Source of the DNA: the human T2T-CHM13v2.0 reference genome, Homo sapiens
Assembly: GCF_009914755.1 (NCBI RefSeq)
Contig: NC_060925.1
Strand: one strand, 5' to 3'
DNA length: 64,000 nucleotides
The notes beneath the pieces were generated by a model. It saw nothing but the letters and a program-made list of their open reading frames with translations. It was not told the origin of the DNA and made no database searches. Both the position numbers and the translations under genes were made by a program. This document shows, piece after piece, positions 28,784 to 31,194 of the stretch. Each line of letters starts with the position of its first letter. The stretch's first letter is position 1.

Positions 28784-29052
28784 TGTTCTCTTTTTCTTTT
28801 TTTTTTTTTTTTTTTTGAGACAGAGTCTCGCTCCGTCACCCAGGCTGGAGTGCAGTGGCATGATCTTTGTCACTACAACTTCTGCCTCCCAGGTTCAAAC
28901 AATTCTCCTGCCTCAGCCTCGCAAGTAGCTGGGGTTACAGGTGCCGGCCACCACGCCCAGCTAGTTTTTGTATTTTTGTGTGTGTGTGTGTGTGTGTTTC
29001 TATTTTTATTTGTTTCAAGGAATTTAACATTTTTAAAACTTTTTTCATTTTT

Positions 29053-29646
29053 AAAAATATGGATCACTTCATGAATTTGCACTTCTCCTTGCAGGGGTCA
29101 TGCTAATCTTCTCCATCATTTCCACTTTAGGATATTGCCACGGTTTCTACGGGACTGAACAAAGGGGGACCCACACAGGAATGAAAACTTAAAACAAAAG
29201 TAAGTATTTTAAAGGAAGGGGCCAGGGGAAGAAGAAGAGCACTCGCAGCTTCCAGTGAGCATGAACAGCACCTGAGCTTCCACAGCCCTTCCTATTTGTT
29301 GAGTAGAATGAGCAGGGAGGAGGAGGTAATGATTGCTCAGCTGCTTAATTGATCACAGGTTCATATTATTACTAAGAGGCTTCAGATGTGCCCTGTAGAT
29401 AATCACAAGAAACACTTGTGCCTGGGTCGTGACTGCCTCAGCATTCCTTCTGGGCGGTAGACGCGGTTTGTCAGTTTACCAGTTTGCCAACGTTCTGCTT
29501 TTCTGAGAACAGTTTGCTGTTTACTCATATACCCTCCAGTGGTATACTGAGTTGATCACAACCCTCACTTTCTGCAGCAGCCACTAAGGAAGGCGCAGAG
29601 GGACTTCCTTTCGGCCCGAAACAGTATCTGTGCTGCCAAAGTGAGT
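29053..29646 (-). pseudogene. U6 snRNA retropseudogene split by an LTR (29053-29135 and 29624-29646)
   Basis: The reverse complement matches U6 (aaaaatatgg...gaatttgc...gcaggggtcatgctaatcttctc... / tgtgctgccaaagtgag). It has an A-rich tail and a TSD-like ggaattt(t)aa on both sides. Confidence 0.92.
29136..29623 (-). mobile_element. LTR3 (HERV-K3/HML-6) solo LTR
   Basis: The minus strand reads gtgagggttgtgatcaactcagtataccactggagggtatatgagtaaacagcaaactgttctc, as recalled for LTR3. TG..CA ends and a degenerate 6-bp TSD ggatat/gtatct (U6 has gtatat here). Confidence 0.8.
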
Positions 29647-29843
29647 ATGGAATTTTAAATTTTCATTCTTAATCTCTTCCTTCACCCACTGGTCATTCAG
29701 GAGCATGTTGTTTAATTTCCACGTATTTGTATAGTTTCAAGTGTTCCTCTTGTTATTGCTTTCTAGTTTTGTTGCACTGTGGTCAGATAAGATACCTGGT
29801 ATGATTTTGATTTTTAAAACATTGTAGAGACATGTTTTGTGTC

Positions 29844-31052
29844 TTTTTTTTTTTTTTTTTTTTTTTTTAGTATTTGTTGATCATTCTTGGGTGTTTCGCG
29901 GAGACGGGGATGTGGCAGGGTCATAGGATAATAGTGGAGGGAAGGTCAGCAGATAAACACGTGAACAAAGGTCTCTGGTTTTCCTAGGCAGAGGTCCCTG
30001 TGGCCTTTGGCCCTGTTTGTGTCCCTGGGTACTTGAGATTAGGGAGTGGTGATGACTCTTAAGGAGCATGCTGCCTTCAAGCATGTGTTTAACAAAGCAC
30101 ATCTTGCACCGCCCTTAATCCATTTAATGCTGAGTGGACACAGCACATGTTTCAGAGAGCACGGGGTTGCGGGTAAGGTTATAGATTAACAGCATCCCAA
30201 GGCAGAAGAATTTTTCTTAGTACAGAACAAAATGGAGTCTCTTATGTCTACTTCTTTCTACACAGACACAGTAACAATCTGATCTCTCTTTCTTTTCCCC
30301 ACATTTCTCCCTTTTCTTTTCTCCCCCTTTTCTTTTTGACAAAACTGCCATCGTCATACTGGCCCGTTCTCGATGGTCGCTGTCTCTTTGGAGCTGTTGG
30401 GTACACCTGCAGAAAGGCTGTCACTTCACACTTGGAAGATTGCACAGCGGCCAGGCAGAGGCGCTCCTCACTTCCCAGACGGGGTGGCGGCGGGGCAGAG
30501 GCGCTCCTCGCATCCCAGACGGGGCAGCCGGGCAGAGGTGCCCCTCACTTCCCAGACGGGGCAGCCGGGCAGAGGCCCCCCTCACTTCCCAGACGGGGCG
30601 GCCAGGCAGAGGCGCTCCTCACTTCCCAGACGGGGTGGCGGCCGGGCAGAGGCTGTAATCTTAACACTTTGGGAGGCCAAGGCAGGTGGCTGGGAGGTGG
30701 AGGTTGTAGCGAGCCGAGATCACGCCACTGTACTCCAGCCTGGGCAACACTGAGCACTGAGTGAGGAGACTCCGTCTGCAATCCCAGCACCTTGGGAGGC
30801 CGAGGCGGGCAGACCACTCGAGGTCAGGAGCTGGAGACCAGCCCGGTCAACACCGCGAAACCCCGTCTCCACCAAAAATACAAAAACCAGTCAGGCGTGG
30901 CGGCGCGTGCCTGCAATCCCAGGCACTTGGCAGGCCGAGGCAGGAGAATCACGGGAGCCCGAGGCAGGGAGGTTGCAGCGAGCTGAGATCAGGGCAGTAC
31001 AGTCCAGCCTCGGCAACAGAGGGAGACCAAAGAAAGAAAGAGGGGGAGGGGG
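29844..31052 (-). mobile_element. SVA_A-type retrotransposon: short hexamer remnant, Alu-like domain, ~5 VNTR units, SINE-R and poly(A)
   Basis: T25 at 29844-29868, SINE-R at ~29869-30445 (including cacctgcagaaaggctgtcacttcacacttggaagattgcac), VNTR ggcagaggcgctcctcacttcccagacgggg at ~30447-30652, Alu-like region to ~31030, then agggggaggggg. Confidence 0.95.
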
Positions 31053-31194
31053 AGTTTTTGTATTTTTAGTAGAGAGGGGGTTTCACTATGTTGGCCAGGC
31101 TTGTCTTGAACTCCCGACCTCAGGTGATCCGCCTGCCTCAGCCTCCCAAAGTGCTGGGATTACAGACGTGAGCCACTGGGCCCAGCCTAGAAAT

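What the first reader, a model, noticed from the sequence alone, without database searches (positions are those of the whole stretch)
28963..31067. SVA_A insertion carrying a ~870-bp 3' transduction (L1 > U6 retrocopy > HML-6 LTR3) into an Alu linker
Seen: the host Alu is split, and agtttttgtattttt occurs at 28963-28977 and 31053-31067. The right-hand 'ag' could belong to the hexamer, so the TSD is 13-15 bp. Between the copies lie the SVA (29844-31052) and also 28978-29843, beyond the SVA's own poly(A). The junction is TTTT/AG, an L1-endonuclease-type site. Known: SVAs are hominoid-specific and can carry 3' flanks by read-through. Inference: the L1 fragment, the diverged U6 copy and the LTR3 look older than SVA, so they probably did not land here afterwards. 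One SVA transcript from a source locus would have delivered the whole nested module, duplicating an snRNA pseudogene and an ERVK LTR.
Basis: partly seen in the sequence, partly recalled or inferred. Interest (0 to 1): 0.8.

Follow-up and report, generated by a model that had tools for sequence, protein, structure and literature searches.

The report
SVA insertion carrying a chromosome-21 flank
A hominoid SVA jumping element landed inside an Alu on chromosome 1 together with about 850 bases copied from chromosome 21, an ordinary case of a mobile element dragging neighbouring DNA along, except that no parent SVA sits at the chromosome 21 site today.

Summary
A minus-strand Alu is split. An exact 15-bp duplication (28963-28977, 31053-31067) encloses 2,075 bp: a full-length minus-strand SVA (31052 to 29844, 25-A tail) plus 866 bp beyond its tail.

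Of those 866 bp, 851 (28993-29843) match one other place in this genome, contig 21 at 42351887-42352737. There are 33 mismatches and no gaps (96.1%), spread evenly over all sub-elements. There the same L1 > U6 > LTR nest lies in an L1 that runs on at both ends, so contig 21 keeps the ancestral arrangement. One event copied the whole nest.

The block ends 12 nt after an AATAAA inside the L1, at a CA. It begins at a TT|AAGA L1-endonuclease-type site.

The predicted hallmark was not found. Contig 21 has no SVA at the junction or within 10 kb on one side and 20 kb on the other, and there are no sibling copies.

Best reading (0.75): a 3' transduction from a contig 21 source SVA that never fixed. 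Main rival (0.12): L1 reverse transcriptase switched templates from a contig 21 RNA to an SVA RNA.

This is a known mechanism and an ordinary instance. The names SVA_A and LTR3 could not be tested here.

The parts
28791..28962 (-). Host Alu, 3' part, with its A tail (poly-T on the plus strand, 28791-28816).
28963..28977 (.). Target-site duplication, the copy next to the 3' end of the insert. In the sense orientation it reads AAAAATACAAAAACT.
28977..28997 (.). (TG)10.5 microsatellite where the terminal poly(A) tail should be. Contig 21 has only TGTG here. No A lies beyond the five A of the TSD.
28993..29052 (-). L1 ORF2-region fragment, sense on the minus strand, forming the 3' end of the copied block. 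It holds AATAAA at 29005-29010. Homology to contig 21 stops 12 nt after that, at a CA.
29053..29138 (-). U6 pseudogene, 3' part (U6 nt 16-107). This is most of the annotated RNU6-725P.
   Evidence: (54.6 bits against a gathering score of 44).
29136..29577 (-). Endogenous-retrovirus LTR inserted into the U6 copy. At least 40 other genomic copies are 81 to 87% identical.
   Evidence: At one locus two copies flank a gag zinc-finger remnant.
29578..29622 (-). 45 nt of unexplained origin between the LTR 5' end and the U6 5' part.
29623..29645 (-). U6 pseudogene, 5' part (U6 nt 4-26, 20 of 23 identical).
29649..29843 (-). L1 fragment forming the 5' end of the copied block. It belongs to the same L1 as 28993-29052.
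29844..29868 (-). The SVA's own poly(A), 25 nt, now internal to the insert.
29869..30350 (-). SVA SINE-R part. Its poly(A) hexamer reads AACAAA (29873-29878), where all 5 closest SVAs read AATAAA.
30447..30653 (-). SVA VNTR, 5.4 units of 37 bp.
30654..31019 (-). SVA Alu-like region (antisense Alu pieces).
31020..31052 (-). CT-rich, hexamer-like 5' end of the SVA.
31053..31067 (.). Target-site duplication, the copy at the 5' end of the insert.
31068..31187 (-). Host Alu, 5' part.

Best explanation
This is one L1-mediated retrotransposition event. An SVA RNA that had read through its own poly(A) site was inserted into an Alu on chromosome 1.

Inferred steps:
- The parent SVA sat in minus orientation on contig 21 (presumably chromosome 21), inside an old L1. 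Its insertion site was TGTT|AAGACAC, read on the L1 sense strand.
- Transcription ran past the SVA tail for about 850 nt, through the L1, a U6 pseudogene and the LTR nested in that pseudogene.
- The transcript was cleaved and polyadenylated at a CA 12 nt after an AATAAA that lies inside the L1 coding sequence.
- The parent SVA never fixed, so today's contig 21 allele is the empty site.
- The terminal A tail was lost, and the ACACA at the RNA end grew into (AC)10.

Shown steps:
- L1 endonuclease-type nicking of the Alu at TTTTT/AG, followed by insertion of the whole RNA, leaving a 13-15 bp target-site duplication.
- The origin of the extra block on contig 21.
For: - A single exact TSD encloses the SVA plus the block, and the Alu is continuous once they are removed.
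- Directly around the SVA alone there is no TSD. Anchored comparisons give 3 of 8, 6 of 10, 8 of 12 and 5 of 15 matches. The bases just after the A25 tail match contig 21 exactly up to the junction.
- The block has one other copy in the genome: 851 columns, 33 mismatches, 0 gaps. Differences per segment are 4/60, 4/102, 15/423, 3/67 and 7/199.
- Searching each end of the block separately found only the window and contig 21 at 95% or above. The next hits are generic L1 at 86% or less and U6 copies at 89% or less.
- Contig 21 keeps the ancestral context on both sides.
- The 3' end looks like a real cleavage site. The window has AATAAA. The third base of that hexamer is T in 23 of 29 related L1 copies, and the three closest copies read AATAAA, so contig 21's AACAAA is probably a later change.
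- The 5' junction on contig 21 is TT|AAGA. Only 39 of 1494 local positions (2.6%) come that close to TTAAAA.
- The SVA's own hexamer is AACAAA, against AATAAA in 5 of 5 closest SVAs.
- The SINE-R part is at most 96-97% identical to any other SVA, an age consistent with the block's 3.9% divergence.
- Literature (PMC12593883, passages read): 3' transductions are frequent among SVAs. For 16% of young transduction-bearing SVAs no source SVA was found, and the authors attribute this to loss or low frequency.
Against: - No SVA lies at or near the contig 21 site in this assembly. The key prediction of a transduction is therefore unmet and has to be explained by loss of the source.
- There are no siblings sharing the block.
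- No terminal A tail remains, only (TG)10.5.
- The AACAAA change in the SVA cannot be shown to predate the insertion. Five other SVAs carry it, but they are no closer to this one (93-95% identity) than SVAs with AATAAA (96-97%).
- If reverse transcriptase switches templates preferentially at AA, the endonuclease-like motif is less telling: 30 of 226 such positions (13%) qualify.
- Only one human assembly could be searched.
Confidence: 0.75

Rival explanations
1. Template-switch chimera. L1 reverse transcriptase began on an unspliced, polyadenylated contig 21 transcript that ended at the L1-internal AATAAA. After about 850 nt it jumped to the poly(A) tail of a normally terminated SVA RNA from some other locus. 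No SVA was ever on contig 21.
For: - It gives the same end product: a single TSD, an internal A tract, and a 5'-truncated 3' part.
- It needs no lost source, which fits the clean empty site on contig 21.
- A template switch between an mRNA and an SVA RNA has been proposed for CKS1B (PMC12593883, passage read).
- The two A at the junction could have guided the jump.
Against: - The junction falls on a TT|AAGA endonuclease-type site, expected for 2.6% of positions, or 13% of positions starting AA.
- The 3' part is unspliced repeat-rich DNA, not an mRNA.
- It needs trans-mobilisation of a rare RNA plus a switch. From recall, both are much rarer than SVA read-through.
- The SVA's own signal is AACAAA in this copy.
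Confidence: 0.12
2. Two separate insertions. Either a retrocopy of the contig 21 RNA entered the Alu first and the SVA later landed exactly at its 5' end, or the SVA came first and the block later inserted between its tail and the TSD.
For: Poly(A)/poly(T) tracts are good L1 endonuclease targets (recalled). A second TSD made only of T would be hard to see.
Against: - There is only one TSD.
- The sequence next to the SVA tail is contig 21 sequence to the base, not a second TSD copy.
- No T run remains at the block's 3' end, where a second tail plus TSD should lie.
- The SVA and the block appear similar in age.
Confidence: 0.04
3. A DNA-level duplication or repair patch copied the contig 21 DNA next to an existing SVA, with no RNA intermediate.
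For: There is no terminal A tail. A (TG)n run sits at the junction, which could be read as microhomology with the contig 21 TGTG.
Against: - The block ends 12 nt after an AATAAA, at a CA.
- It starts exactly at the end of the SVA tail.
- The whole insert lies inside an L1-type TSD at a TTTTT/AG site.
Confidence: 0.02

Closest known systems
SVA 3' transductions (Xing et al. 2006, recalled and not held here; PMC12593883, passages read)
   Same: A full-length SVA with its own A tract, followed by unique flanking DNA from another chromosome. The block ends at a downstream poly(A) signal, and everything lies in one L1-type TSD. Loss of the source SVA is described for part of the young cases.
   Different: The progenitor SVA is absent from the origin locus in this assembly. 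There are no siblings, and the terminal tail has been replaced by a dinucleotide repeat. The cargo is itself a three-level repeat nest rather than unique or genic DNA.
SVA-CKS1B pseudogene chimera by template switch (PMC12593883, passage read)
   Same: SVA at the 5' side and a 5'-truncated foreign RNA copy at the 3' side.
   Different: In that case the foreign part is a spliced mRNA and no A tract separates the parts. Here the foreign part is unspliced and follows a 25-A tract.
U6 retropseudogenes and U6/L1 chimeras made by L1 (recalled)
   Same: On contig 21 the U6 copy sits in an L1. About 35 nt of L1 are present on both sides, as a long TSD would give.
   Different: The chromosome 1 U6 copy (RNU6-725P) was not made from U6 RNA. 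It is a passenger in a longer RNA and was already split by an LTR.

Membership tests
SVA retrotransposon | CT-rich hexamer 5' end, antisense Alu-like region, VNTR, SINE-R and poly(A), in that order. | tested here: met
   Read. TRF finds a 37-bp VNTR of 5.4 units, a 25-nt tail and a GAGGGG repeat. Weak Alu/SRP hits lie on the opposite strand. The element is colinear from q13 to q1196 with another SVA (L021, 89%). The SINE-R part is 95-96% identical to 39 other loci.
SVA retrotransposon | Subfamily SVA_A. | not testable with these tools
   No consensus library is on hand. What can be said is that no other copy exceeds 96-97% identity, and the block's divergence of 3.9% (3.05% at non-CpG sites) points to an old insertion.
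L1-mediated 3' transduction | Extra sequence between the element's own poly(A) and the 3' TSD, all inside one TSD at an L1 endonuclease-type site. | tested here: met
L1-mediated 3' transduction | The extra sequence maps to one other locus that keeps the ancestral context. | tested here: met
   Contig 21, 96.1% identity over 851 bp. The L1 continues on both sides.
L1-mediated 3' transduction | A progenitor element lies directly upstream of the sequence at the origin locus. | tested here: not met
   No SVA at the junction, and no SINE-R or VNTR within 10 kb to the left or 20 kb to the right. This applies to one human assembly only. Published work accepts lost sources, so this lowers the claim but does not exclude it.
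L1-mediated 3' transduction | The block ends at a downstream poly(A) signal followed by an A tail. | tested here: inconclusive
   The signal is present: AATAAA at 29005-29010, 12 nt before the end of homology at a CA. The tail is absent; (TG)10.5 stands in its place.
L1-mediated 3' transduction | The block starts with the source element's TSD, so the origin junction is an endonuclease site. | tested here: inconclusive
   The junction is TT|AAGA, a match reached by 2.6% of local positions. Without the source's 5' flank the TSD itself cannot be seen.
U6 snRNA pseudogene | Match to Rfam RF00026 above its gathering score. | tested here: met
   54.6 bits against a gathering score of 44, at 29053-29154 on the minus strand. 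Comparison with six identical genomic U6 copies shows nt 16-107 at 29138-29053 and nt 4-26 at 29645-29623.
HERV-K(HML-6) LTR3 | Similarity to the LTR3 consensus. | not testable with these tools
   Only the kind of element is supported. It is a repeat of about 440 bp with at least 40 copies at 81-87% identity. At C2:128.05 Mb two copies flank a remnant matching the retroviral Gag zinc-finger family PF14787 (E 4e-17).
Template-switch chimeric retrocopy | The 5' part is complete, the 3' part is 5'-truncated at an arbitrary point, and there is one TSD. | tested here: inconclusive
   The structure is compatible, but the junction is not arbitrary: it is a TT|AAGA site.

The most novel reading that the evidence does not exclude
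No SVA ever sat on contig 21. The insert would then be an ancient SVA chimera, roughly 10 to 20 million years old. L1 reverse transcriptase would have copied an unspliced contig 21 transcript that ended at a poly(A) signal inside an L1, then switched to the tail of an SVA RNA. This would show that template switching, not only read-through, put foreign DNA behind SVAs early in their history.
Probability: 0.12. Interest if true: 0.35.

Novelty: new member of a known kind. Interest (0 to 1): 0.2.

Why it matters
- It is a clean worked example of how an SVA moved 851 bp between chromosomes. It duplicated a U6 pseudogene and a retroviral LTR.
- RNU6-725P is therefore a passenger copy, not an independent U6 retrocopy.
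- It shows that an origin locus can be recovered even when the source element is gone. This matters for transduction catalogues that require a progenitor element.
- The copied block supplies both internal exons of a predicted lncRNA listed in the hub's table.
- None of this changes what is known about SVA biology.

Tried and rejected
- **TSD around the SVA alone.** Rejected. The longest shared word, TCTCTAC, is not at the ends, and the anchored matches are poor.
- **SVA near the contig 21 locus.** None within the 30 kb fetched plus L002. Only ordinary Alus matched the Alu-like part, at 67-77%. An SVA about 99 kb away (C21:42252593) appeared, but it lies downstream of the module and is transcribed away from it.
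- **Sibling copies.** None was found with the whole block or with either end. Only 40 candidates are scored per search, but any copy at 90% or more would have outranked the 81-89% rows that were listed.
- **Is AACAAA a lineage marker?** No. Five other carriers exist but are not closer relatives.
- **Literature.**
  - Xing et al. 2006 is not held.
  - A search for RNU6-725P found 0 papers.
  - A search for SVA-mediated transduction papers up to 2015 found 0.
  - The CHM13 repeat paper (bioRxiv 10.1101/2021.07.12.451456, passages read) catalogues progenitor-offspring transductions. Its tables could not be opened, so I cannot say whether this locus is listed.
- **Origin of the 45 nt at 29578-29622.** Unresolved.

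Full report
**What is in the sequence**

The Alu at 28791-31187 lies on the minus strand and is interrupted. AGTTTTTGTATTTTT occurs exactly at 28963-28977 and again at 31053-31067. Looser matches exist (8 with up to 1 mismatch) because the word is an Alu motif. The two exact copies, however, share the host's own G variant.

I removed 28978-31067 and aligned the remainder to 7 other Alus of the window. Five passed my score cut-off, and all 5 cross the junction with no gap at it. The duplication is therefore a real target-site duplication. The nick site is TTTTT/AG on the plus strand.

**The SVA**

Read on the minus strand from 31052, the element has these parts in order:
- a CT-rich hexamer-like start
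- an Alu-like region, whose Alu pieces score weakly on the opposite strand in Rfam
- a VNTR of 5.4 units of 37 bp at 30447-30653
- a SINE-R part
- 25 A (29868 to 29844)

It is colinear over q13-1196 with another short SVA (L021, 89%). Its SINE-R part matches 39 other loci at 95-96% and none better. My own alignments give 95.7-97.4% for the five best. It is a complete but old SVA. The subfamily name could not be tested.

**The extra 866 bp**

A search of the window's own assembly with 28978-29843 gave two long matches. One is the window itself. The other is contig 21 at 42351887-42352737, 96% identical over q16-866. The 40 further rows cover only q158-601 at 81-87% and belong to an LTR family.

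Base by base, 28993-29843 aligns to the contig 21 copy over 851 columns with 33 mismatches and no gaps. Differences per sub-element are 4/60, 4/102, 15/423, 3/67 and 7/199. This evenness is what one copying event predicts. Searching each end alone found only these two copies at 95% or more.

**Anatomy of the block, read on the minus strand**

- **L1.** 29843 to 29649 and 29052 to 28993 are two pieces of one L1, in the sense orientation. In an uninterrupted L1 (L033) they map to overlapping coordinates. About 35 nt are present twice, as a long TSD of the U6 insertion would give.
- **U6.** Rfam finds U6 at 29053-29154 (54.6 bits, gathering score 44). Compared with six identical genomic U6 copies, U6 nt 16-107 lie at 29138-29053 and nt 4-26 lie at 29645-29623 (20 of 23 identical). 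The U6 copy is therefore split.
- **LTR.** Between the two U6 parts lies an LTR, about 29577 to 29136. In the six other loci examined, 7 alignments span q76 or q85 to q501-519.
- **Unexplained 45 nt.** 29622 to 29578 could not be assigned.

At one other locus two copies of this LTR flank a remnant that matches the retroviral Gag zinc-finger family PF14787 (E 4e-17). It is thus an endogenous-retrovirus LTR. The name LTR3 was not testable.

**Which copy is ancestral**

On contig 21 the L1 continues on both sides.
- Across the right junction, 8 of 10 other L1 copies are colinear with contig 21 with no gap within 15 nt. The other two aligned poorly or with gaps.
- Across the left end, 29 related L1 copies continue in the same way.
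- The chromosome 1 copy is instead bounded by the SVA tail on one side and by the TSD on the other.

Contig 21, or a lost locus just like it, is therefore the origin.

**The two ends of the block**

*3' end.* Homology stops at GAAACACA, 12 nt after AATAAA (29005-29010). Contig 21 now reads AACAAA at that hexamer. The third base is T in 23 of 29 related L1 copies, and the three closest copies read AATAAA. The signal was thus most likely intact on contig 21 when the RNA was made. This end looks like the cleavage site of a polymerase II transcript.

No A tail remains. (TG)10.5 stands where contig 21 has TGTG. I infer that the tail was lost and the ACACA seed expanded. Growth of dinucleotide repeats at retroposon tails is recalled from the literature and was not tested here.

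*5' end.* The block begins right after the SVA tail, at a contig 21 site that reads TGTT|AAGACAC on the sense strand. This is one mismatch from the L1 endonuclease consensus TTAAAA (recalled). Only 39 of 1494 local positions (2.6%) come that close, or 30 of the 226 positions that start with AA.

**The missing source**

Contig 21 has no SVA at the junction. Within the 10 kb to the left and 20 kb to the right that I fetched, only ordinary Alus match the SVA's Alu-like part, and nothing matches SINE-R or the VNTR. No sibling insertion carries the block.

The paper PMC12593883 (passages read) reports that for 16% of young transduction-bearing SVAs no source element is found at the origin. The authors put this down to loss or low frequency. 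The same paper proposes a template switch between an mRNA and an SVA RNA for one case.

**Weighing the readings**

Read-through from a contig 21 SVA that never fixed explains five things:
- the internal A tract
- the endonuclease-type origin junction
- the unspliced cargo
- the poly(A)-site end
- possibly the SVA's own weakened hexamer, AACAAA against AATAAA in 5 of 5 closest SVAs

That last change cannot be dated. Five other SVAs carry it without being closer relatives (93-95% against 96-97% identity).

A template switch gives the same product without a lost source. It does, however, leave the junction motif to chance and needs rarer events. Two-step insertion is disfavoured because there is only one TSD and because the bases next to the SVA tail are contig 21 sequence to the base. 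I put read-through at 0.75, template switch at 0.12, and the rest below 0.1.

**Age**

The two copies differ at 3.9% of all sites (Jukes-Cantor 0.040) and at 25 of 821 non-CpG sites (3.05%). With recalled primate substitution rates of about 1.0 to 1.5 per thousand sites per million years per lineage, this gives very roughly 10 to 20 million years. That fits an early SVA but does not name the subfamily.

**Limits**

- Only one human assembly was available, and no ape or monkey orthologues.
- No repeat library was on hand.
- Xing et al. 2006 is not held.
- The supplementary tables of the CHM13 repeat paper are closed, so the locus may already be listed in print.

**Verdict**

This is an ordinary instance of a known mechanism.

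Noticed in passing
window 29131-29199 and 29578-29640 (+): Both internal exons that the hub's table lists for the predicted lncRNA LOC105373220 lie wholly inside the copied block. They have AG/GT splice sites (cactttag|, |gtaagt, ctgcag|, |gtgagt). The same four sites are intact in the contig 21 copy (L002 about 1639-1707 and 2086-2148).
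   Followed up: partly
window 29053-29154 and 29623-29645 (-): The RNU6-725P annotation covers U6 nt 16-107 plus about 16 nt of the LTR end. The U6 5' part (nt 4-26) lies about 470 bp away, across the LTR. The pseudogene is split and is a passenger copy of the contig 21 one.
   Followed up: yes
window 29578-29622; L026 (G000:C21:42350511-42350548): 45 nt between the LTR 5' end and the U6 5' part match nothing else in the genome. The exception is a 38-nt exact repeat (the LTR's first 10 nt plus 28 nt of this stretch) 1.95 kb upstream on contig 21, where it abuts an Alu. Its origin is unexplained.
   Followed up: partly
window 28977-28997: A (TG)10.5 microsatellite has grown from a TGTG seed since the copy was made. 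It occupies the place of the lost poly(A) tail.
   Followed up: partly
L002 1513-1518 (contig 21) compared with window 29005-29010: The L1-internal poly(A) hexamer is AATAAA in the chromosome 1 copy but AACAAA at the origin locus today. Related L1 copies (T in 23 of 29) suggest that contig 21 changed afterwards.
   Followed up: yes
L005/L006 (G000:C2:128050600-128053910): Two copies of the same LTR family, 2.9 kb apart, flank a remnant with two CCHC zinc knuckles. It matches Pfam PF14787 at E 4e-17, so this is a degraded provirus of the LTR's family.
   Followed up: partly
G000:C21:42252593-42253045: Another minus-strand SVA lies about 99 kb from the origin locus. It sits on the downstream side and is transcribed away from the module, so it is not a candidate source.
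   Followed up: partly
L058-L062: Five other SVAs in the genome carry the same AACAAA change in their poly(A) hexamer but are not close relatives of this one. The change is recurrent.
   Followed up: yes
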